DNA of 61,487 nucleotides from Minisyncoccota bacterium. GTDB lineage: Bacteria; Patescibacteriota; Minisyncoccia; Phycocordibacterales; UBA9973. Both the position numbers and the translations under genes were made by a program. Numbering within the stretch: position 1 is the stretch's first letter; each line of letters opens with the position of its first letter. The stretch is taken from contig JBAYKO010000004.1 in the NCBI GenBank assembly GCA_041664605.1, positions 1 to 61,487 of the forward strand. The letters are read 5' to 3'. Under the pieces are notes generated by a model, which saw nothing but the letters and a program-made list of their open reading frames with translations, had not been told where the DNA came from and ran no database searches. Below, in pieces: positions 14,697-56,671 of this stretch.

Positions 14697-14809
14697 GATT
14701 GATTTATAAGGAGCTTTGCGACTATATATTTACATAAAATCGGTTCGCTCGATCAAAATAAATTAGTAAACTATTTATTTCTCTCTCCCTGCCGATTATA
14801 AATCGTCAC

Positions 14810-14911
14810 CCAGCACTTATTTTACTTTTAATTTGTACAAAAATCTATTTTTAATCCCTAAATAATACATTATTCTATAAAAAATACTAGTTTTTGTAAA
14901 ATAAGTGCTGG
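14810..14911. repeat. CCAGCAC-family inverted-repeat element enclosing the rplK promoter
   Basis: Perfect 16-bp arms ccagcacttattttac / gtaaaataagtgctgg. TTTACA-17-TAGAAT on the minus strand (14900-14872). Confidence 0.8.
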
Positions 14912-14949
14912 ATTAAGAAAAATATATTCCGCCCTGCTTCATTATTTTT

Positions 14950-18564: not shown

Positions 18565-18676
18565 ATCCAGCACTAAATTTTATTAGCACTTATTAAGATT
18601 TTAAATAATAATACTTAAATTGATTATATCAATTAGGGTAAAAAAAACTAGGCAAGTATAAAATTTAGTGCTGGAT
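18565..18676. repeat. CCAGCAC-family element with perfect 19-bp arms enclosing a promoter
   Basis: atccagcactaaattttat / ataaaatttagtgctggat; TGaTATAAT on the minus strand at 18631-18623. Confidence 0.85.
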
Positions 18677-46542: not shown

Positions 46543-47967
46543 ATGAATACCAAGGCACCAATTATTCAACAACATGAATTATTACCTAATTGTAATAATA
46601 ATTGCGGTTTTTGTTACAATCCAGAAAGATGCTGGAAACAAACTTTTACACCTCGCAAAGAGGACGAAAATCTTAATCTGAAAATTACCGAGCTTTCTAT
46701 TAGTAAAGGTATTATGGCTAGTTGTTTAACTGGCGGAGAACCAACACTTGTACCTAAGCATTTACTAAATCTTCTGCAAATTTATAAAAATGTAGGATGT
46801 TACAAAAGTATTAATTCAAACGGCAGATTAATTGATAAATCTTTAGCAAAAAAACTAAAAGATGTAGACCTAAACTCTGCATTAATATCAATACATGGGG
46901 TTGGCCAATTACACAACTACATGGTTGGTGATAATAATGCATTTATTGAAACAAAGAATGGTATAGCTAATCTTATGGAAGCTGGCATTCATGTTGTTCC
47001 AAATTTTGTTGCTACTGCTAAAAACATTCATGGACTAGAAGATGTAGGGATAATGTTACTTAAAATGGGTTTAAACTTTATGACAGTTACGCCATTTTTA
47101 CCCTCATGGGCAACACCTGAGCATGAACAATACATCATGCAGACAGAAAATTATAGGAAATATTTTGAAGTCATAAGTAAAATTGGGAAACTGGGAATGA
47201 AAATTGACTCTACCCTACCAATTCCACCATGTGTGCTTATAAAATTCTTTCCTGATAATTGGGTTGATTATTTAGAAGTTCTTTCGCCACGAGTTTGTAT
47301 GGCAGGAAAATCTTTTGGAGTAATATCTCCCGATGGAATGTTTCGTTCTTGTATTCAGGCACCATATTTCGAAACTTATGGCGGAAATGTTGTTGATGAA
47401 TATGAAAAAAGTTGGAAAAGAAGCAATAAATGGGCAGATTTAAAACTTTTGCCAAAAGAATGCTTAGAGTGTAAAGCACTTTCAGTTTGTGGAGGAGGCT
47501 GTAGGACAAGTTGTCTTTGGGAAAACAATGGTTCACCCTTTGGAAAAACTATGTATATGGATAAACCATTATCAGAAACCGAAGCACAATATTTCATTAA
47601 ACGTACAGAGGTCAAAATTGAATCAAAAAATGGACCATATGCTTGGCAACCACAAATCAAGATGAGAGATGAAGGCTGGGGTATAATAATTTTTAATTCC
47701 AACAATCAATCATTTTGCTTGCTCGCTTCAGAATTTAGAAAATATCTAAAAACTGAAAGTTTAGATATACAAGATAAACATACAACTGAAGTACTTTTAT
47801 CTTTTGGAGCAATAAATAAGACAGATAAAATTTCTAATATTACTGTGATACCGAATGAAATTAAATCACTTCCCGCAAACATCATATTTCCAAGATTAGC
47901 AGATGGCTTAACAAATGACATAGTACGTGAATTAAGGAGTGATACGGGAGAAAGATTAAGGTTTTAA
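46543..47967 (+). CDS. Radical SAM/SPASM domain protein with a C-terminal extension
   Basis: CNNNCGFC, TGGEP; SPASM CMAG...ISPDG...C and CLEC..LSVCGGGC...C. Confidence 0.92.
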   Translation: MNTKAPIIQQHELLPNCNNNCGFCYNPERCWKQTFTPRKEDENLNLKITELSISKGIMASCLTGGEPTLVPKHLLNLLQIYKNVGCYKSINSNGRLIDKSLAKKLKDVDLNSALISIHGVGQLHNYMVGDNNAFIETKNGIANLMEAGIHVVPNFVATAKNIHGLEDVGIMLLKMGLNFMTVTPFLPSWATPEHEQYIMQTENYRKYFEVISKIGKLGMKIDSTLPIPPCVLIKFFPDNWVDYLEVLSPRVCMAGKSFGVISPDGMFRSCIQAPYFETYGGNVVDEYEKSWKRSNKWADLKLLPKECLECKALSVCGGGCRTSCLWENNGSPFGKTMYMDKPLSETEAQYFIKRTEVKIESKNGPYAWQPQIKMRDEGWGIIIFNSNNQSFCLLASEFRKYLKTESLDIQDKHTTEVLLSFGAINKTDKISNITVIPNEIKSLPANIIFPRLADGLTNDIVRELRSDTGERLRF

Positions 47968-48039: not shown

Positions 48040-48441
48040 TTAGAAACTAACTTTTTCTTCAACAGAAATAGTTTTTATTGTTATTGCATCTACTTTTACA
48101 GATAGATTTGTTGTCTTATTAGCGACAATTGCTTGTATGTTTATTAGTTTAAACCCTATTCCTGACTCAATTGGTTTTATTTCACAAGTATTACTTTCTA
48201 TGGATATATTCTCATTGCCTGCGTAATTTATATTTTCGGCAAGTTTTAATTTAGCATAATCCAAACATCCAAGTGCTAGGGAAAAACTTTTATCTTTTTC
48301 CACAATAGACCCAGAATCTAGTCTACTCCAAAAACTAGCGTTAGAAGATACTGATGCAATTAAAAAAATAATAATTGATAAAATTATTGAAGTTATTAAA
48401 GCAATAAAACCATTATTTTTTTGTTTTTTATAATATTTCAT
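48040..48441 (-). CDS. Minor pilin-like protein (PilX-like)
   Basis: KQKNNG|FIALITSIILS class III signal without E5. Confidence 0.75.
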   Translation of the reverse strand: MKYYKKQKNNGFIALITSIILSIIIFLIASVSSNASFWSRLDSGSIVEKDKSFSLALGCLDYAKLKLAENINYAGNENISIESNTCEIKPIESGIGFKLINIQAIVANKTTNLSVKVDAITIKTISVEEKVSF

Positions 48442-48455
48442 TTGATTTTATAAAA

Positions 48456-49016
48456 TTAAGGTAATACATAATAAAATATGGTTGAAGAATTAATTGATTG
48501 AGATATCACACTTTGTAAATTTAAAGAAACTTTAATCGTTGGTTTTGACTGAACTGCATCAAAATATTCTACATTAAAATTAGTAACCTTAACAGAATCA
48601 TTTGTAATGGGAACAGGAGTCCCGTTGTTTAAACTTAAATTTACCTTTTCAGAAGTTAGTGTAAATGAAGCAGGATAAACACCGGAAACTAACCCCGAAA
48701 AAGAAAGAGTATGGTCTGGGGTTCCAATAATTGGGCTCGTTACAGCAGTTGATTGATTAATAATCCATTGTATTTTTTTATCAACCATTTCCTGGTTTGC
48801 GATTATTTCTTTTCTTGCCAAAGATGCGTTATCAGCTTTTGCAATTGAATTAAAAAAAGTTATAGATATAACTAAAAAAACAGATAGCATTCCTGAATAC
48901 AAGACAGTTTCCATTAGACTAAATCCAGCACCAAATTTATTCTCTGAATAAATTTGGTGCTGGATAAACCCATACTCTGACTTTGTTTTATTTTTTGTTT
49001 TTTTAAAAATAAACAT
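48456..49016 (-). CDS. Minor pilin-like protein with a palindromic insertion in the leader
   Basis: YGF-IQHQIYSENKFGAG|FSLMETVLY. Confidence 0.8.
   Translation of the reverse strand: MFIFKKTKNKTKSEYGFIQHQIYSENKFGAGFSLMETVLYSGMLSVFLVISITFFNSIAKADNASLARKEIIANQEMVDKKIQWIINQSTAVTSPIIGTPDHTLSFSGLVSGVYPASFTLTSEKVNLSLNNGTPVPITNDSVKVTNFNVEYFDAVQSKPTIKVSLNLQSVISQSINSSTIFYYVLP
48923..48965. repeat. CCAGCAC-family palindrome in frame in a prepilin leader
   Basis: atccagcaccaaatttattc-tct-gaataaatttggtgctggat; perfect 20-bp arms. Confidence 0.9.
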
Positions 49017-49027
49017 GATTTAAATAC

Positions 49028-50485
49028 TTATTGTGAAGTAATAATTCGAAGTGAATCATTAGAACGGACAGAAACATAGATTACATTGTCTTCATAATCT
49101 ATACCCGACGCAACCTGAGGAAAATTAAAGGAACTCCAAAGAGTGGGGTTTATCGGGTCAGTAATATTCCAAACTTGAAATTCATTATTTGGATCATCTG
49201 TCGCCAAAAACATTAAGTAGTCTTTTATAAAAAGATCATTGATACTTGAGTTAAAATTTTTAGATTCAATAGTTAGTGGGTTAGTTGGGGTAGATATATC
49301 AAGAGTATATAATTCATGATGATCAACATGATTTCCTCCAACTGTTCTTCCAAGATAAAGTTTGGGAAAAACTAAACACAAAGACTTTCCATCTTCTGTA
49401 TTACCATTGGCATCAAAATCATTAATTGTCGTAATACTTGCAGGATTATTTACATCTAAAATTTTTAATTCTTTATCATCATTGGATAACGAAAGATAAG
49501 CAATATTATCCTTAACTATAATTGCATTAACATCGCCATTAATTTCATAACTACCTAATTCTTGTGGATTTGATGGTATAGAAACATCAATAATATGAAA
49601 TTCTGGCCCATTCGCTTGATTGGTTCCAATATAAATTTTTTGAGAATCATAAAATATAGAATTCCCAACAGCCCCACTCCCCGAAACACCAATCAAGTGA
49701 AATGATGCATAAAGAGTTGGCGAGTTTATATTGGACACATCTATTATTTGGAGTTGATTGCTTGTTGATTTATTAGCAACATATGCGTAATTTCTAGCAA
49801 CATCAACAGCATTCAAGCCTGTACCAGTATTTACACTGGAAACAATAAACGGACTATTTCCATTTGTTGCATCAACAATATAAAAATCTGCTTTTTTATT
49901 ATCTGAAGCTTCTGTCGATAAATATACAATTTTATTTACAACATCTAAATCTGTCGCCGAATTTCCAGCGCCCAAATCAACAGATCCTAATGTTTGAGGG
50001 TGCAACCAATCACCAGCAAGCCCTGTACCTCCAGTATCTCCACCCGTTGCGGAAACATCAAACCAATCTGATACAATGCTTAATAATTCTACTTCTAAAT
50101 CCTTATGTGATTCTGATTCCCAATCAACAACACTTTTAATTGTTTTCTCATCTTTATTGATTGTTGTTATTTGAATTTTTCTAGTAAAAATATCGTTTTC
50201 ATCTTGGTCCCCTAATAATTCCCATTTTCCATTTGTAAAAGAGAGTCCATAAATTCCATCTGGTGTAGATTTCCAGTTATTTTCTAAGACAGATTTTACC
50301 CCAACAATACCCTCTTTACTTAAAACTCTTGCAGTGAATTCATTTTCTCTGTCTGTTAAGATTTTCTGACCACTCCAGAATAGAATGACAGAAAAACCAA
50401 TAGCAGTTGATAATAGAAAAAGAGCTATAACTATTTCTATCATACTGCTTCCTTTTTCATTTTTTTGATTTTGATTTTTATTCAT
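49028..50485 (-). CDS. Minor pilin-like protein with C-terminal LVIVD-repeat beta-propeller
   Basis: EKG|SSMIEIVIAL; repeats LQIIDVSNINSP, FHIIDVSIPSNP, LKILDVNNP. Confidence 0.82.
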   Translation of the reverse strand: MNKNQNQKNEKGSSMIEIVIALFLLSTAIGFSVILFWSGQKILTDRENEFTARVLSKEGIVGVKSVLENNWKSTPDGIYGLSFTNGKWELLGDQDENDIFTRKIQITTINKDEKTIKSVVDWESESHKDLEVELLSIVSDWFDVSATGGDTGGTGLAGDWLHPQTLGSVDLGAGNSATDLDVVNKIVYLSTEASDNKKADFYIVDATNGNSPFIVSSVNTGTGLNAVDVARNYAYVANKSTSNQLQIIDVSNINSPTLYASFHLIGVSGSGAVGNSIFYDSQKIYIGTNQANGPEFHIIDVSIPSNPQELGSYEINGDVNAIIVKDNIAYLSLSNDDKELKILDVNNPASITTINDFDANGNTEDGKSLCLVFPKLYLGRTVGGNHVDHHELYTLDISTPTNPLTIESKNFNSSINDLFIKDYLMFLATDDPNNEFQVWNITDPINPTLWSSFNFPQVASGIDYEDNVIYVSVRSNDSLRIITSQ

Positions 50486-50501
50486 AATTCTTATTTTTTT
50501 A

Positions 50502-50984
50502 CTACCAATTTAAGGCACCCTCACTGTTAACATCAATTGTTCTAGAAGCTTGCCCTTCACTTAAAGTAAAAGACCCAGACTGAATTGGTTTTCCAGAAAC
50601 TGGAGAAAAAACTATTTCATTTAAACCATTTATATTAATTGATTCATTGCGCTCATATGTTTCGTCATAGATTAAATCACGATTATTAAAATCTATCCCT
50701 TTAAAAATCACTATGTGTTCTGGTTGAATGGATACACCAAATTTGTTTTCAAAATTATTAGACATGGCAAGATTTTCTGCTCGGCGTAATATACTTACCA
50801 AGGTTCTTGTTTCAAAAGTAACAAAATATCTTCGATAAAAATCAATAGTAAATGGTAGTGACACAGCAGCTAAAAGACCTAAGATAGCTAACGTTATTAC
50901 TATTTCAATTAAAGTAAATCCAACACCAAGTTTCTTTTTTGAAAAAATTTGGTGCTGGATAAACCCTTTTTGTTTTTTATACAT
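50502..50984 (-). CDS. Prepilin-type protein (FimT/GspH-like), start revised to 50984, with a leader insertion
   Basis: MYKKQKGF-IQHQIFSKKKLGVG|FTLIEIVITLAIL. Confidence 0.85.
   Translation of the reverse strand: MYKKQKGFIQHQIFSKKKLGVGFTLIEIVITLAILGLLAAVSLPFTIDFYRRYFVTFETRTLVSILRRAENLAMSNNFENKFGVSIQPEHIVIFKGIDFNNRDLIYDETYERNESININGLNEIVFSPVSGKPIQSGSFTLSEGQASRTIDVNSEGALNW
50918..50960. repeat. CCAGCAC-family palindrome in frame in a prepilin leader
   Basis: atccaacaccaa...ttggtgctggat; 43 nt, the same length as the 48923 copy. Confidence 0.85.
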
Positions 50985-50994
50985 AATTCTTGTT

Positions 50995-52071
50995 TTACAG
51001 ACCTTGGGTAACTTTATAAATAGGAGTGACAATAGAAAGGGCGATAAAACCAACTGAAAGTCCCATAAAAAGAAGTAGTGCTGGCTCAATTAATGTCGTT
51101 ATATTTTTTATTTGTTCATCAACTTCACTTTCATAATATTCTGCAAGATAAAACATATTTTCTTCTAATTGACCTGAGGACTCCCCAACTTTTATCATTC
51201 CTATAAACATGGGTGGAAAATATTTTGGTTCTGTTTGTAAATAATTAGAAAGTGTTTCTCCCCTGTTTATATATTCAATTAATTTTTCCATTTTTTGTTT
51301 ATATAAAAGATTATTAAAAGTTCCAGAAGATACAGAAATAGCGTCAACTAAATTCATTCCGCTTTTTAAAAGAATTCCTATTGATCTTGAAAAATTCGTT
51401 AAAGTAAGATCAGTTATTGTTTTAGAAATAAGTGGTAAAGAGAGAAGAAATTTATGGTAAATAAAACGAACTTTTTTAACCCTAAACATAAACTTAAGTC
51501 CTATAACAAATGAAACAAGAGAGATAGCAGAAATAACACCATAATGTTTAAGGAAATCTAAAAGACCTATGACGATTCTTGTTGTAATTGGAAGTTCAAC
51601 TTTCAAACTAGTAAATATTGGCAATATTTTTGGAAAAATAAAAACAACTAAAAAAGCAGTCATGCTTAGGGTTATACAAAGAAGAACCATTGGATAAATC
51701 ATTGCTGAACGAACTTTTCCTTTAGTATCTTTTTGTTTTTTTAATTCGGTAGCAATATAAAGTAAACTCTCAGAAAGATTACCGCTCGATTCTCCAACTT
51801 TAACTATACTTATAAAAAAATCACCAAAAATATCGTGAAATTCATTTAGAGCACCAGCAAAAGATTGCCCTTTATTAACACTTCCTATTATTTCATTAAT
51901 TACTTTGACAAAATATTTAGAATCAGTTTGTTTAGTTAAAAGACCAAGAATTGTTCCTATTGGAATACCGCTCTTAATACCAACAGAAAGATTTCTCGCA
52001 AAGTTTATTTTCTCTTGCAAGCTAACGCTATTCATAAAACTATTAATCTTTTTCTTTTTCTTTTTTTCCAT
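50995..52071 (-). CDS. pilC: Type II secretion F / PilC inner membrane platform protein
   Basis: VKVGESSGNL, SAMIYP, IKVGESSGQL, LIEPALLL. Confidence 0.93.
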   Translation of the reverse strand: MEKKKKKKINSFMNSVSLQEKINFARNLSVGIKSGIPIGTILGLLTKQTDSKYFVKVINEIIGSVNKGQSFAGALNEFHDIFGDFFISIVKVGESSGNLSESLLYIATELKKQKDTKGKVRSAMIYPMVLLCITLSMTAFLVVFIFPKILPIFTSLKVELPITTRIVIGLLDFLKHYGVISAISLVSFVIGLKFMFRVKKVRFIYHKFLLSLPLISKTITDLTLTNFSRSIGILLKSGMNLVDAISVSSGTFNNLLYKQKMEKLIEYINRGETLSNYLQTEPKYFPPMFIGMIKVGESSGQLEENMFYLAEYYESEVDEQIKNITTLIEPALLLFMGLSVGFIALSIVTPIYKVTQGL

Positions 52072-52100
52072 TCTATAGTTTTTATCTGTTTTGAATAATC

Positions 52101-53342
52101 TTATTCGTAAGTTATCCTCAAAACTTCTTCCACTGTAGTTACTCCTTGAAAAGCTTTTTGTAATCCATCTTCTAGCATTGTCTGCATTCCTTTTGTCATG
52201 GCCATTTGTTTTATTTGACTAGCATCAGCGTTTGCAATAATTAATTTTCTTATTTCATCATTAACTTCTAACACTTCGTGTATTCCGGTTCTTCCTGTAT
52301 AACCTGTTTTATTACACTTATCGCAACCGTCTCCTACTGTGTAAGTTTTTTCGTTTTTTATTTCATAACTTGGATCATGCCCTAGATTTTCCCTAAGTAC
52401 CATAGTTAGTGCATTTTTTTCAGAATCATCAAGAGTATGTTCTTTTCTACAACCATCACAAACTTTTCTAACTAACCTTTGCCCAATAACAACATTTAAA
52501 GTTGATGCAATTAAAAATGGTTCAATATCCATATCAACTAAACGAGGGAATGTTGTAGCTGCATCATTTGTGTGTAAAGTTGAAAACATTAAGTGTCCTG
52601 TTAAAGCAGCATTAACAGCAATACCTGCAGTTTCTTTATCTCTTATTTCTCCAACCATGATTATATCTGGATCTTGTCTTAAAATAGCACGGAGTCCATT
52701 TCCAAAATTTAATCCTGCTTGCACATTAACTGGCATTTGAGTAATCCCAGAAACGGAATATTCGATAGGATCTTCAATAGTAATAATTGAACGTTCTCTT
52801 ACATTTAATTTTTTTAGAAGTGTATAAAGTGTAGTAGATTTTCCAGAACCCGTAGGACCATTTGCTAAAATCATACCGTAAGGTTTTTTTACAGCCTTTT
52901 CAATAATATCAATCTGTTCAGGAGTAAAACCAAGTTCGACTAAAGTAAATTGTGTTGTTTCAGCTAAAACTCTCATAACAACATTTTCTCCATAATAAGT
53001 TGGAGCAATCGAAACACGAACATCAACTTCCGCAGAATCTTCTACTTTAGATTTAAATCTACCATCTTGAGGAATATGATGAATATCTATTTTGAGATCA
53101 GATAAAACTTTTATTCTAGAAACTACTTCTGCTTGAAGTTCTTTAGAAAAAAAGAAGCTATCAATCAAAATTCCATCCACTCTAAAACGTGCAACCACCC
53201 TGTCTGACATTGGTTCAAGGTGAACATCTGAAGCCCTAACTACATAAGCATATTCTATTAATAGATCAACAAAATCAATTACAGAAATTTTGTCCACTCC
53301 TTTATTAATTTCATTTTCAATAGATAATTTAAGATTTTCCAT
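52101..53342 (-). CDS. pilB: GspE/PilB-family assembly ATPase (lacks the N-terminal domain)
   Basis: ASDVHLEP, PQDGRF, GPTGSGKSTT, TIEDPIE, LRQDPDIIMVGEIRD, TGHLMFSTLHTND, tetra-Cys motif. Confidence 0.93.
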   Translation of the reverse strand: MENLKLSIENEINKGVDKISVIDFVDLLIEYAYVVRASDVHLEPMSDRVVARFRVDGILIDSFFFSKELQAEVVSRIKVLSDLKIDIHHIPQDGRFKSKVEDSAEVDVRVSIAPTYYGENVVMRVLAETTQFTLVELGFTPEQIDIIEKAVKKPYGMILANGPTGSGKSTTLYTLLKKLNVRERSIITIEDPIEYSVSGITQMPVNVQAGLNFGNGLRAILRQDPDIIMVGEIRDKETAGIAVNAALTGHLMFSTLHTNDAATTFPRLVDMDIEPFLIASTLNVVIGQRLVRKVCDGCRKEHTLDDSEKNALTMVLRENLGHDPSYEIKNEKTYTVGDGCDKCNKTGYTGRTGIHEVLEVNDEIRKLIIANADASQIKQMAMTKGMQTMLEDGLQKAFQGVTTVEEVLRITYE

Positions 53343-53507: not shown

Positions 53508-53987
53508 ATGTCAAAACAAAAAGGTTTTACTTTGATTGAACTTTTAGTAGTTATTGGTATCATTGCCATTTTGGCTGCAGTTGTTATTGTTGCTGTTAAC
53601 CCAGCTAGACAATTCGCTCAGACAAGAAATGCGCAAAGAACTGCTAGTGTCTCTACTATTCTAAATGCTATTGGGCAAAGAATTTCTGATAATAAAGGAA
53701 TCTTTGAAACAAACTGTGCAGCTGGTGTTATGCCAACAACTACCATAGCAATCCCCGCAACTGCAAAAAATATGTCTTCAACAGCTGGTGATTATGATAT
53801 TGCCCCATGTCTTGTTCCAACATATGTTTCAGCAATGCCTTTTGATCCGAGTGCTACTGATGCTCATTACACAAGCAACACAGACTATGATAGTGGCTTC
53901 ACTATACTAAAAAACGGTGATACTGGTCGCGTAACAATCGCTGCTCCAGGAGCTGAATTGTCTATAACAATCTCAGCAGAAAGATAA
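53508..53987 (+). CDS. Type IV pilin (major-pilin-like)
   Basis: KQKG|FTLIELLVVIGIIAILAAVVIVAVNP. Confidence 0.93.
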   Translation: MSKQKGFTLIELLVVIGIIAILAAVVIVAVNPARQFAQTRNAQRTASVSTILNAIGQRISDNKGIFETNCAAGVMPTTTIAIPATAKNMSSTAGDYDIAPCLVPTYVSAMPFDPSATDAHYTSNTDYDSGFTILKNGDTGRVTIAAPGAELSITISAER

Positions 53988-56032: not shown

Positions 56033-56116
56033 ATAAGTGGATTTTTAAATATAAAACTGTTAATCTGATAAAGATAACAGTTTTATTTTTAATATATTAA
56101 ATTAATAATATAAAAT

Positions 56117-56183
56117 GCCCTCATAGTTCAAAGCCGACGCAAAAGTCGGCTCTCCGACGCAATAGTCGTCGGAGCGGATAGAA
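56117..56183 (+). pseudogene. tRNA-Arg 5' fragment with a 43-nt D-loop insertion, truncated by the GIY-YIG gene
   Basis: GCCCTCATAGTTCAA-[insert 56132-56174]-CGGATAGAA; 24-bp direct repeat with 56449-56472. Confidence 0.85.
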
Positions 56184-56184
56184 T

Positions 56185-56454
56185 ATGAATAACCAACTAT
56201 GTGTTTATATTTTAAAAAATAAATCCAACAAATATTATGTTGGTAGTACAGACAATCTAGATCGTAGATTACATCAGCACAAAATGGGATATACTCAAAC
56301 AACTCGAAACATGAAATCTTTTCAATTAGTTTTAAAACAAGATTATTCTTCTTTAGAAATGGCAAGAAAAATAGAGAGAAAAATTAAAAAATTAAAAAGA
56401 AAAGATTATATTGAAAAAATGATTAAAGAAGGTTATATTAAATTGGTTATATAA
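56185..56454 (+). CDS. Small stand-alone GIY-YIG nuclease
   Basis: CVYILKN...YYVGSTDNLDRRLHQH...ARKIERKIKK.K. Confidence 0.92.
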   Translation: MNNQLCVYILKNKSNKYYVGSTDNLDRRLHQHKMGYTQTTRNMKSFQLVLKQDYSSLEMARKIERKIKKLKRKDYIEKMIKEGYIKLVI

Positions 56455-56457
56455 AAT

Positions 56458-56532
56458 GCCCTCATAGTTCAACGGATAGAACGTAACTTTGCGGAAGTTA
56501 TGATCCAGGTTCGATTCCTGGTGAGGGCACCA
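56458..56532 (+). tRNA. tRNA-Arg(GCG)
   Basis: GCCCTCA/TGAGGGC-A-CCA, TAACT-TTGCGGA-AGTTA, CCAGG-TTCGATT-CCTGG. Confidence 0.93.
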
Positions 56533-56535
56533 TAA

Positions 56536-56644
56536 ATAGTTCAAAGCCGACGCAACAGTCGGCTCTCCGACACCATGGTCGTCGGAGTGGATAGAACGTA
56601 ACTTTGCGGAAGTTATGATGTAGGTTCGATTCCTACCGAGAGGA
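56536..56644 (+). pseudogene. tRNA-Arg(GCG)-like remnant lacking the 5' acceptor strand, with a 43-nt D-loop insertion
   Basis: ATAGTTCAA-[insert 56545-56587]-TGGATAGAAC, identical anticodon arm, different T arm and 3' end CGAGAGG with no pairing partner. Confidence 0.8.
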
Positions 56645-56671
56645 CAATAATGTAATGATATCATCAGTATC

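What the first reader, a model, noticed from the sequence alone, without database searches (positions are those of the whole stretch)
48923..50960. Palindrome inserted in prepilin leader peptides that regenerates the cleavage site
Two minor pilin genes carry the same-length 43-nt ATCCAGCACCAAATTT palindrome (45 nt net, 15 codons) at the G-F junction: GF-IQHQ...G(A/V)-GF-TLIE/SLME. The element's own end (GCTGGATTT) rebuilds G|F, so the insert would be removed with the leader by prepilin peptidase. That makes it a nearly cost-free landing site. The same terminus occurs between genes at 14810 and 18565. The hairpin could also modulate pilin translation.
Basis: partly seen in the sequence, partly recalled or inferred. 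Interest (0 to 1): 0.75.

Follow-up and report, generated by a model that had tools for sequence, protein, structure and literature searches.

The report
Hairpin repeat inserted in prepilin leaders
Two pilus-subunit genes carry a short palindromic DNA repeat exactly where the signal peptide is cut off; the repeat rebuilds the cut site, so it is probably discarded with the signal peptide, and the same arrangement recurs in dozens of unrelated pilin genes of ultra-small (CPR/Patescibacteria) bacteria.

Summary
Two minor-pilin genes of a type IV pilus operon each carry a 43-nt palindrome plus TT (45 nt, 15 codons) between the leader's Gly-Phe and a second Gly-Phe next to the hydrophobic helix.

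The palindrome belongs to a dispersed hairpin-repeat family. Its stem foot is A(T/C)CCAGCAC…GTGCTGG(A/G)T and its interior varies but co-varies. A genome scan found 58 loci against about 0.3 expected, mostly Patescibacteria, and nearly all intergenic.

The same element sits at the same G|F junction in about 20 further pilin genes read as DNA (25 to 52 nt). It also shows in 44 of 68 protein-cluster representatives, whose inserts obey codon rules that only a DNA palindrome predicts.

- Unrelated pilins of one genome share identical copies with unrelated flanks.
- Tandem arrays of two to four units exist.
- The upstream Gly-Phe decays while the downstream one is invariant.

Best reading (confidence 0.62): a REP/MITE-like mobile hairpin repeatedly lands on GGN-TTT^A and is tolerated because prepilin peptidase removes it with the leader. 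The mobilising enzyme, actual cleavage and any regulatory effect are untested.

I found no description in the literature searched. I rate it a new variant of in-frame palindromic elements.

The parts
48923..48965 (-). Palindrome copy in pilin A. It is a perfect 20+3+20 hairpin, ATCCAGCACCAAATTTATTC-AGA-GAATAAATTTGGTGCTGGAT, read on the coding strand as IQHQIYSENKFGAG.
48921..48926 (-). Regenerated Gly-Phe codons (GGA TTT) of pilin A. GGAT is the end of the palindrome, and TT (48921-48922) lies outside it as a possible 2-bp target duplication. This is the inferred PilD cleavage site, directly followed by SLMETVLY.
   Evidence: inference supported
48966..48971 (-). Original Gly-Phe codons (GGG TTT) of pilin A, now stranded upstream of the insert.
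48456..49016 (-). Minor pilin A (186 aa). It has no detectable homologues by word-indexed search. L178 holds a syntenic orthologue with a 25-nt copy at the same site.
50918..50960 (-). Palindrome copy in pilin B. It is 43 nt like copy A, with a partly decayed arm (G.T at positions 6 and 17, A.C at position 13), and encodes IQHQIFSKKKLGVG.
50916..50921 (-). Regenerated Gly-Phe codons (GGA TTT) of pilin B, followed by TLIEIVITLAILGLLAA. The Pfam N_methyl motif aligns here (residues 22-42).
50961..50966 (-). Original Gly-Phe codons (GGG TTT) of pilin B, upstream of the insert.
50502..50984 (-). Minor pilin B (160 aa, weakly GspH/FimT-like).
18565..18676 (.). Long-form family member. Its 19-nt arms ATCCAGCACTAAATTTTAT enclose a 74-nt AT-rich, non-palindromic interior. 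It is intergenic, 7 nt upstream of a small membrane-protein ORF.
14808..14913 (.). Long-form family member between nusG and rplK. Its arms are ACCCAGCACTTATTTTAC and GTAAAATAAGTGCTGGAT.
53523..53531 (+). Unoccupied site of the same form (GGT TTT ACT) in the major pilin gene MSKQKG|FTLIE.
50995..53342 (-). pilC (T2SSF) and the pilB-like ATPase, which head the operon carrying the two interrupted pilins.

Best explanation
What it is. The two palindromes are copies of a short, duplicative hairpin repeat, REP- or MITE-like. The family is defined by a conserved stem foot, A(T/C)CCAGCAC…GTGCTGG(A/G)T. The interior stem and loop vary in length and sequence. The family normally lives in intergenic spacers of Patescibacteria and of a few Omnitrophota, Planctomycetota and other genomes.

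Shown:
- In prepilin genes the element sits immediately after the leader's GGN TTT and is followed by TT(A).
- Every length found in this IQHQ frame (25, 28, 31, 37, 40, 43, 49, 52 nt) equals 1 mod 3, so palindrome plus TT keeps the reading frame. One 30-nt copy (L264) lies in another frame.
- Only variants with an open fourth codon (CAA, CAC/CAT, CTA, TCN) occur there. The common intergenic TAA variant would be a stop codon in this frame.
- The right arm encodes Gly-Ala-Gly and, with the flanking TT, Phe. This places a new G|F directly in front of the hydrophobic helix.

Inferred:
- Prepilin peptidase cuts at this new site, so the old leader and the 9 to 19 inserted residues leave together and the mature pilin is unchanged.
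- That makes this junction one of the very few places in a gene-dense genome where the element costs almost nothing.
- The element reaches the site by a copy-and-paste process with some preference for T-TT-A, leaving a 2-bp TT duplication. Because it rebuilds GGATTT^A, it can be hit again and produce tandem arrays.
- The enzyme is unknown.
- Once inserted, the copies decay like neutral DNA.
For: Family membership.
- The two-arm pattern matches 58 loci in one-genome-per-species contigs, against about 0.3 expected by my estimate. Genomes carry several copies each: at least 8 loci in one Saccharibacteria MAG and 4 in one Omnitrophica MAG.
- Arms almost never occur singly.
- Density is 0.14 per kb in those loci, against 0.007 per kb in 675 kb of pilC loci from other phyla.

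Hairpin logic, from 79 pooled copies.
- Positions 3 to 8 are invariant.
- Position 10 is T-A in 56 and C-G in 21. Position 11 is A-T in 50 and T-A in 25. Position 13 is T-A in 44 and A-T in 24. Non-pairs are very rare.

Recurrence at the G|F junction.
- DNA examples are L130, L251, L178/L252, L253, L256 (two copies), L257, L258, L261, L262, L263 (two), L265 (four), L266, L268 (two) and L269 (two).
- 44 of 68 protein-cluster representatives carry the insert.
- Their peptides obey palindrome codon rules: 38 of 42 against a null of 21.3 +/- 2.3, and 30 of 42 against 12.1 +/- 2.4.

A discrete mobile unit.
- Two adjacent, unrelated pilins in L256 share an identical 31-nt copy with unrelated flanks.
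- In Candidatus Taylorbacteria GCA_001821015.1, two unlinked pilins (OHA26557.1 and OHA26373.1) share an identical 43/43 copy. A third pilin has the same arms with a different centre. PilD is in the same operon.
- L268 has a decayed 52-nt unit upstream of a pristine 40-nt unit, which means two separate events.
- Homologous pilins differ in occupancy: L130 7303-7953 is empty while L263 2080-2712 is filled.

Which site is used.
- The upstream GF is degenerate in 11 of 46 proteins, and every unit found has G-[F/Y] downstream.
- N_methyl aligns to the second site.

Flanks.
- Identical flanking dinucleotides occur in 21 of 79 copies, against 11.0 +/- 2.8 expected (maximum 19 in 2000 shuffles). Nearly all are TT/TT or its complement.

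Placement of intergenic copies is like REPs or terminators: 27 between co-directional genes, 5 convergent and 1 divergent.
Against: - No transposase or other candidate enzyme was found. No protein family recurs near 60 loci apart from translation GTPases.
- No autonomous element with these ends was seen.
- The TT duplication is absent from many intergenic copies, especially those in Paceibacteria. There the hairpin sits inside a larger, motif-like inverted arrangement next to -10-like boxes. That arrangement could mean a host function.
- The stem foot is conserved across phyla, and the arms co-vary. A selected structure or a protein-binding site would also produce both.
- The excess at pilin junctions is partly inflated, because I searched for it. 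In the unbiased scan only 1 of 58 copies was in a pilin.
- PilD cleavage at the second site has not been measured in any organism.
- The mismatches in decayed pilin copies show no G.U bias, so they say nothing for or against an RNA-level role.
Confidence: 0.62

Rival explanations
1. The hairpin is a functional cis-element kept by selection: an RNA or DNA structure, or the binding site of a conserved host factor. In intergenic spacers it would act as a terminator, processing signal or operator. In pilin mRNAs it would throttle translation or mRNA stability of minor pilins. On this view its position in the leader is adaptive rather than tolerated.
For: - The foot sequence is invariant across phyla and the arms co-vary.
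- The RNA stems are very stable.
- Intergenic copies lie mostly after genes or between co-directional genes.
- One intergenic copy scores as terminator-like.
- Many sit about 9 nt from -10-like boxes in front of nusA, rplJ, nusG, mraZ, pilB and pilC.
Against: - Many pilin copies are visibly decaying: window copy B, L262, L263a/b, L253 and L268 unit 1.
- Occupancy differs among paralogues of one operon and among homologues.
- Stem length ranges from 11 to 24 bp.
- The pilin copies lack a T tail and are not terminator-like.
- Tandem arrays of two to four units are hard to explain as regulation.
- No Rfam family matches.
Confidence: 0.2
2. There was one ancient insertion, or one de novo inverted duplication, in an ancestral pilin. 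It then spread by vertical descent and by homologous recombination or gene conversion between the conserved 5' ends of pilin genes, with no transposition involved.
For: - Pilin N-terminal coding regions are the most conserved part of these genes.
- Copies within one genome resemble each other more than copies in other genomes.
- CPR bacteria are thought to take up DNA through their pili (general knowledge).
Against: - The identity blocks end exactly at the palindrome, and the leader and mature-coding flanks are unrelated (L256; L266 against L269).
- The same family exists in dozens of intergenic sites with no pilin sequence around it.
- Pilin copies use the arm variant of their own genome's intergenic copies, for example AAATTT in the window and in the Saccharibacteria MAG.
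- L268 shows two insertions of different age and length.
Confidence: 0.08
3. The palindrome is a site for a site-specific recombinase, as in a shufflon or the Piv system. The recombinase would swap leaders and promoters among pilin cassettes, or switch pilins on and off.
For: - The same symmetric site lies at the leader/mature boundary of several pilin genes in one genome (window; L263; L269; the Saccharibacteria MAG).
- Pilin inversion systems with sites inside the 5' coding region are known in Moraxella (from memory, not tested here).
Against: - No recombinase gene was noticed in the T4P neighbourhood ORFs I scanned.
- Two independent assemblies of the contig agree.
- Inversion between the two window copies would give nonsense fusions.
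- Most family members flank housekeeping genes.
Confidence: 0.05
4. The extra 9 to 19 residues are a functional peptide module of the leader, for example a recognition tag for a specialised peptidase or chaperone. On this view the DNA symmetry is incidental.
For: The insert peptides are widespread, and the QH and GAGF motifs are conserved.
Against: - The conserved residues are exactly those dictated by the conserved DNA foot.
- The variable residues co-vary by base-pairing rules, not by any protein logic.
- The same DNA occurs outside genes.
- One copy (L264) is read in a different frame and still sits next to the cleavage site.
Confidence: 0.05

Closest known systems
Rickettsia palindromic elements (RPE; Ogata et al. 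2000, recalled from memory; cited context in PMC1779305, PMC10969869)
   Same: Both are short palindromic selfish repeats found in frame inside protein-coding genes, with the gene remaining intact.
   Different: RPEs are 100 to 150 bp and restricted to Rickettsia. They are unrelated in sequence and end up in the mature protein at many positions. Here the unit is 25 to 52 nt. It recurs at one defined junction of one protein superfamily and is predicted to be removed by signal-peptide processing.
REP / REPIN sequences mobilised by RAYT transposases (PMC3733652, PMC3337134)
   Same: Both are 20 to 40-nt imperfect palindromes present in multiple copies. Both are mostly extragenic, lying after genes or between co-directional genes. 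Both have a conserved foot with a variable distal stem.
   Different: There is no GTAG or CGTC head tetranucleotide. Copy numbers are low. No RAYT was identified. Part of the copies show a TT flank duplication. REPs are by definition extragenic.
Bacterial MITEs such as Correia/NEMIS elements (review PMC10969869)
   Same: Both have inverted terminal arms, a short target duplication in a subset, long forms of 105 to 112 nt with unrelated interiors, and occasional in-frame insertions.
   Different: Most copies here are nothing but a perfect hairpin whose interior co-varies, which terminal repeats of a DDE transposon would not require. No parent IS is known.
Inverted-repeat DNA uptake sequences forming terminators in Neisseria (from memory)
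   Same: In both, a conserved short motif is paired into hairpins downstream of genes, in organisms that depend on type IV pili or competence.
   Different: Here the motif never occurs singly, its density is about 100-fold lower, and it is shared across phyla.
Class III (type IV prepilin) signal peptides with long leaders, e.g. type IVb pilins (PMC10191384 for background)
   Same: The resulting 22 to 60-residue leaders still end in Gly(-1) followed by Phe and a hydrophobic helix with Glu5.
   Different: The extra length is not an evolved leader. It is an inserted DNA repeat, sometimes in tandem.

Membership tests
Type IV prepilin (class III signal peptide) | Gly at -1; Phe/Met/Tyr at +1; Glu at +5; about 20 hydrophobic residues following; a short basic leader. 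| tested here: met
   The second GF site of both window pilins fits: GAG|FSLMETVLYSGMLSVFLVISI and GVG|FTLIEIVITLAILGLLAAV. Pfam N_methyl aligns to residues 22-42 of pilin B, just below its cut-off (20.5 against 21.2 bits). It aligns to the second site in P0012, P0016 and P0025. The first GF is followed by polar IQHQ and does not fit.
Type IV prepilin (class III signal peptide) | Cleavage and N-methylation by a PilD-type peptidase. | not testable with these tools
   No Peptidase_A24 gene was found among the window ORFs I scanned. One lies in the same operon as occupied pilins in L269 and in L263.
REP / REPIN-RAYT | A 20 to 40-nt imperfect palindrome, multi-copy and extragenic. | tested here: met
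   Modal length is 38 to 43 nt, with several copies per genome. In the unbiased scan (58 loci), 27 copies lie between co-directional genes, 5 between convergent genes and 1 between divergent genes.
REP / REPIN-RAYT | A conserved GTAG or CGTC tetranucleotide at one end. | tested here: not met
   All 79 copies start with A(T/C)CCAGCA. Neither GTAG nor CGTC appears in the foot or the adjacent flank.
REP / REPIN-RAYT | A cognate Y1 (HUH) transposase gene in the genome. | not tested
   Only fragments of 8 to 11 kb per genome were available. No recurrent candidate was found near 60 loci.
Classical MITE (DDE-transposon derivative) | Terminal inverted repeats plus a fixed-length target-site duplication. 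| tested here: inconclusive
   Inverted arms are always present. A 2-bp TT/TT (or AA/AA) flank identity occurs in 18 of 79 copies plus TC variants, 21 matches overall against 11.0 +/- 2.8 expected. It is absent from most Paceibacteria intergenic copies.
Classical MITE (DDE-transposon derivative) | A related autonomous IS with the same ends. | tested here: not met
   No distant inverted arm pairs were found in about 0.5 Mb of loci. There were no hits in viral contigs. Whole genomes were not searched.
Rickettsia palindromic elements | In-frame insertion of a palindromic repeat in ORFs that stay intact. | tested here: met
   The reading frame is kept in all pilin copies read as DNA. In the IQHQ frame all lengths equal 1 mod 3 and TT restores the frame. 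One 30-nt copy (L264) lies in another frame.
Rickettsia palindromic elements | 100 to 150-bp consensus families specific to Rickettsia. | tested here: not met
   Units here are 25 to 52 nt, with a different sequence and different phyla.
Intrinsic terminator | A G+C-rich stem directly followed by a U tract. | tested here: not met
   The window pilin copies are not called terminator-like and are followed only by TTT. Some intergenic relatives do qualify.
Any Rfam RNA family | A covariance-model match at gathering score. | tested here: not met
   There is no match at the palindromes in the window or in six loci.

The most novel reading that the evidence does not exclude
The element is not merely tolerated at the prepilin cleavage junction. 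It homes to it. An unknown enzyme would recognise the codon string GGN-TTT-A(C/G), which resembles the element's own right end GGATTT-A. It would insert a snap-back hairpin there and so recreate its own target. This would explain tandem arrays, identical copies in unrelated pilins of one genome, and the strong excess at roughly ten sites per megabase. That would be a transposable element specialised on a signal-peptide processing site, using proteolytic maturation as its way of being spliced out at the protein level.
Probability: 0.3. Interest if true: 0.85.

Novelty: new variant of a known kind. Interest (0 to 1): 0.74.

Why it matters
If correct, this is a way for selfish DNA to live inside an essential gene at almost no cost. 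The host's own signal peptidase removes the encoded peptide, much as an intein or intron is removed, but without any activity encoded by the element.

- It explains a class of oddly long CPR prepilin leaders with double or multiple G-F motifs. Signal-peptide predictors and annotators will mis-handle these.
- It identifies a cross-phylum hairpin repeat family in genomes usually regarded as almost free of repeats.
- It gives dated natural markers (pristine against decayed copies) for pilin gene turnover in Patescibacteria, whose type IV pili are central to their episymbiotic lifestyle.
- It offers a natural test of how much leader length and sequence PilD tolerates.

Tried and rejected
- **Homologue searches for pilins A and B.** These returned only the query proteins themselves. 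A short-profile word search found a single extra protein, P0003.
- **First genome scan with one 16-nt arm.** This was wasted.
- **First metagenome pattern.** It required a gap of at least 12 nt and found nothing. A relaxed pattern found 13 loci, 10 of them pilin-leader copies.
- **Viral contigs.** No copies.
- **Rfam.** No family matched.
- **PilC-based synteny search.** The nearest genomes are only 44% identical and have a different operon layout, so they offered no orthologous empty alleles.
- **Known operators and sites.** I compared the foot from memory with CIRCE, the DnaA box, the CodY box, Chi, dif, attC and DUS/USS. I rejected them all because the half-site spacing varies from 7 to about 90 nt and the sequences differ.
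- **RNA-level selection.** I looked for a G.U against A.C bias among stem mismatches of pilin copies and found none (about 7 against 7).
- **A promoter inside or next to the window pilin copies.** There was no excess of sigma-70-like sites.
- **Recurrent neighbouring gene (candidate mobilising enzyme).** Only translation GTPases cluster, which is an artefact of the shared GTPase domain.
- **GIY-YIG nucleases.** They are fused or adjacent upstream of three occupied pilins (P0016, P0025, P0041). The window's GIY-YIG gene is 5 kb from the pilin copies and has no palindrome near it. This lead is not followed to a conclusion.
- **Literature searches.** Searches by sequence string, peptide string and topic found no description.
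Full report
**1. The observation**

The region is the distal part of a type IV pilus operon on the minus strand. It runs from a PilB-like ATPase (52101-53342) through PilC (50995-52071, Pfam T2SSF 1.8e-55), pilin B (50502-50984) and a 485-aa pilin with LVIVD repeats (49028-50485), to pilin A (48456-49016) and a PilX-like protein (48040-48441). A canonical major pilin lies on the other strand (53508-53987, MSKQKG|FTLIE).

Pilin A begins MFIFKKTKNKTKSEYGF-IQHQIYSENKFGAGF-SLMETV. Pilin B begins MYKKQKGF-IQHQIFSKKKLGVGF-TLIEIV.

The 15 extra residues are encoded by a 43-nt palindrome plus TT. Copy A (48923-48965) is a perfect 20+3+20 hairpin. Copy B (50918-50960) has the same length, with two G.T and two or three other mismatches.

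The 16-mer arm occurs 7 times in the window with up to 3 mismatches, against 1.33 expected, and none of 100 shuffles reached 7. All occurrences are head-to-head pairs. Besides the two pilin copies there are two long forms, at 18565-18676 and 14808-14913.

The same contig was assembled independently with the same sequence.

**2. The palindrome belongs to a dispersed family**

I scanned one genome per species (596 Gb) for ATCCAGCACYWAWTTT, then 1 to 61 nt, then RGTGCTGGAT. This gave 58 loci, where I estimate about 0.3 by chance.

They come mainly from Patescibacteria: Saccharibacteria, Paceibacteria, Minisyncoccia, Komeilibacteria, Kaiserbacteria and Buchananbacteria. Several Omnitrophota and Planctomycetota, one Treponema MAG and two gammaproteobacteria also carry it. 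One Saccharibacteria MAG contributes at least 8 loci and one Omnitrophica MAG contributes 4.

Arms almost never occur alone. In 675 kb of pilC loci from other phyla the motif is at chance level, 0.007 per kb against 0.14 per kb. It is absent from viral contigs and from Rfam.

I pooled 79 distinct copies.
- Positions 3 to 8 (CCAGCA) never vary.
- Position 10 is T-A in 56 copies and C-G in 21.
- Position 11 is A-T in 50 and T-A in 25.
- Position 13 is T-A in 44 and A-T in 24.
- Deeper positions show all four pair types.

So the two arms change together. Lengths run from 25 to 112 nt with a mode near 40.

Placement is typical of REP-like or terminator-like repeats: 27 copies lie between co-directional genes, 5 between convergent genes and 1 between divergent genes. 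In the unbiased set, only one copy lies inside a confidently coding gene, and that gene is a prepilin (L130).

**3. The pilin-leader position recurs widely**

Pattern scans that required the right arm to be followed in frame by Phe-x-Leu-x-Glu found:
- a second pilin in the Saccharibacteria MAG (L251);
- ten metagenomic pilin-leader copies, in L252, L253, L256, L257, L258/L259, L261, L262, L263 and L264.

Reading those contigs further showed more:
- a second occupied pilin in L263;
- a second occupied pilin in L256.

P0003/L178 is a syntenic orthologue of window pilin A with a 25-nt copy, MKKNGF-IQHQTGAGF-TLIE.

In this IQHQ frame every palindrome length found equals 1 mod 3 (25, 28, 31, 37, 40, 43, 49, 52). 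Every such copy follows GGN-TT(T/C), once GGA-ATT, and is followed by TT or TC. Intergenic copies show all three length classes. One 30-nt copy (L264) sits at the junction in a different frame.

The common intergenic variant CAC-TAA would be a stop codon in this frame. Pilin copies in this frame never use it.

A profile of the three N-termini was searched against 1.84 billion cluster representatives. It returned 68 proteins at E <= 0.001, and 44 carry one or more such units.

Even without their DNA, the palindrome shows through.
- If codon 4 is CAC or CAT (His), the residue before GAGF is Ser (AGT) or Asn (AAT): 18 cases.
- Gln (CAA) pairs with Phe, Leu or Ile (NTT).
- Leu (CTA) pairs with Leu.

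Formally, 38 of 42 units are codon-compatible with base-pairing at codon 4, against 21.3 +/- 2.3 after shuffling tails (maximum 28). For codons 4 to 5 the figures are 30 of 42 against 12.1 +/- 2.4.

The peptide is not conserved apart from the DNA palindrome.

**4. Evidence that it is a discrete, duplicative element**

- In L256, two adjacent and unrelated pilins share an identical 31-nt copy. Identity starts at GG(G/A)TTT and stops at TTAC, and the flanks are unrelated.
- In Candidatus Taylorbacteria GCA_001821015.1, a LamG-domain pilin (OHA26557.1, L266 4028-4070) and an unlinked GspI-like minor pilin (OHA26373.1, L269 3052-3094) carry the same 43 of 43 nt. A third pilin in the operon has the same arms and another centre. 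The PilD gene heads that operon.
- Tandem arrays exist. P0007/L265 has four units of palindrome plus 2 nt. P0008, P0038 and P0047 have two.
- In L268 the upstream unit is 52 nt and badly decayed, while the downstream unit is a perfect 40-nt hairpin. These are two events, not a duplication.
- Occupancy differs between homologues. The PilW-like gene is empty in L130 and occupied in L263.
- Occupancy also differs between paralogues. The window's major pilin has the intact site GGT TTT ACT.
- Pilin copies share the arm variant of their own genome's intergenic copies, AAATTT in the window and in the Saccharibacteria MAG.
- Flank dinucleotides are identical in 21 of 79 copies, against 11.0 +/- 2.8 expected. 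Almost all are TT/TT or the complement. They are concentrated in Saccharibacteria and Komeilibacteria intergenic copies and in all pilin copies, so the reconstructed target is T-TT-A.

**5. Which Gly-Phe is used**

This is inference from established knowledge. PilD needs Gly at -1 and cuts at the cytoplasmic face directly before the hydrophobic helix, and leader length is free (background in PMC10191384).
- Only the downstream GF is followed by that helix.
- Pfam's N-methylation motif aligns there.
- Across 46 occupied proteins, every unit found has G-[F/Y] downstream. The upstream pair has drifted to SF, RF, WF, GI or nothing in 11 (L258).

The insert is therefore most likely removed with the leader. 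This has not been measured.

**6. What the hairpin does otherwise**

As RNA the window copies are very stable. They lack a U tail and are not terminator-like, and there is no excess of promoter-like sites around them.

Some intergenic relatives do look like terminators. In Paceibacteria-type genomes the hairpin lies in a larger mirror arrangement, about 9 nt from -10-like boxes. These are followed by a conserved TCGCnnnGCTC(A/C)TTA…ATG leader in front of nusA, rplJ, nusG, rpsN, mraZ, typA, pilB and pilC.

The window has that leader motif in front of rplK without the hairpin inside it. I could not decide whether this reflects a host function or a preferred landing zone. It is the main reason my confidence is not higher.

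Many pilin copies are decaying, which argues against a required structure there.

**7. Comparison with known systems**

The behaviour is closest to in-frame palindromic repeats such as Rickettsia RPEs, and to REP or MITE repeats. It fails the defining sequence tags of REPs (no GTAG or CGTC). It has no known parent IS. It is much shorter than RPEs or Correia elements.

Two things appear to be new. One is the recurrent occupation of a single functional junction, the class III signal-peptide cleavage site. The other is regeneration of that site by the element's own end.

Eight literature searches and one paper read in detail gave no description. That library is incomplete, so prior description cannot be excluded.

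**8. Verdict**

It generalises from two genes to a widespread feature of Patescibacteria prepilins.

Mechanism confidence:
- 0.62 for a mobile hairpin tolerated because it is clipped off with the leader;
- 0.2 for a selected regulatory hairpin;
- the rest for recombination-based or peptide-based readings.

Novelty: new variant of a known kind. Interest: 0.74.

Noticed in passing
window 56100-56650: A GIY-YIG nuclease ORF (56185-56454, Pfam 1.1e-13) sits between repeated tRNA-Arg 5' parts. GCCCTCATAGTTCAA occurs at about 56117 and again at the start of the intact tRNA-Arg(GCG), 56458-56532. A third partial tRNA-like copy follows at about 56537-56640. Two of the three copies carry a roughly 45-nt double-hairpin insert (AGCCGACGCAA..GTCGGCTCTCCGAC..GTCGTCGGAG) after the D-arm. 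It looks like a homing-endonuclease or intron-like insertion that duplicated part of a tRNA gene.
   Followed up: partly
P0016, P0025, P0041 (cluster representatives): GIY-YIG nuclease domains or their first residues (MYYVY…) are fused or read through directly upstream of prepilins that carry the palindromic insert. Pfam confirms GIY-YIG plus N_methyl in P0025. This may be a link between GIY-YIG genes and pilin 5' ends, or a gene-calling artefact.
   Followed up: partly
window 14697-14790 (minus strand, upstream of rplK); L121, L123, L131, L134, L136, L138, L140, L144, L158, L160, L175: A conserved motif TA(T/A)A(G/T)T-CGC-nnn-GCTC(A/C)TTA lies 15 to 20 nt before start codons of housekeeping genes in several Patescibacteria. 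It often appears as a mirror pair around the hairpin. The downstream half resembles the 3' end of 16S rRNA (CTCCTTA) and the mirror half resembles a Shine-Dalgarno sequence. In the window it occurs once (14707-14721), with a degenerate mirror half and no hairpin between.
   Followed up: partly
L124, L132, L176 (Phycisphaerae, Planctomycetota, Pirellulales): An identical 38-nt copy (ATCCAGCACCAATTTTGTCATATAAATTGGTGCTGGAT) has near-identical flanks and an outer inverted repeat GAATATCC…GGATATTC. It sits next to tryptophan-biosynthesis genes in three different genomes. This looks like a conserved locus rather than a scattered repeat.
   Followed up: no
L178 1667-2194: The orthologue of window pilin A is split by a stop or frameshift after residue 57. 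It is either a pseudogene or an assembly error.
   Followed up: no
window 46543-47967: A 474-aa radical-SAM protein (Pfam Radical_SAM hit in the gene table), with a Cys-rich C-terminal part, is encoded divergently right next to the pilin operon. The same neighbour is present in the second assembly.
   Followed up: no
L164 4735-4775: A TAA-variant copy is flanked by GGATTC and TTACCC, a pilin-like junction. It lies about 40 codons upstream of a prepilin's real G|FTLIELL site. It may be a remnant of an older, now untranslated leader.
   Followed up: no
L269 1591-1740: The first pilin of the Taylorbacteria operon has a 43-residue leader, …VNVGF-ARCNTGVGLPRTTFTRRKRGAGF-TIVE. It may contain a very old, fully decayed unit.
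   Followed up: no
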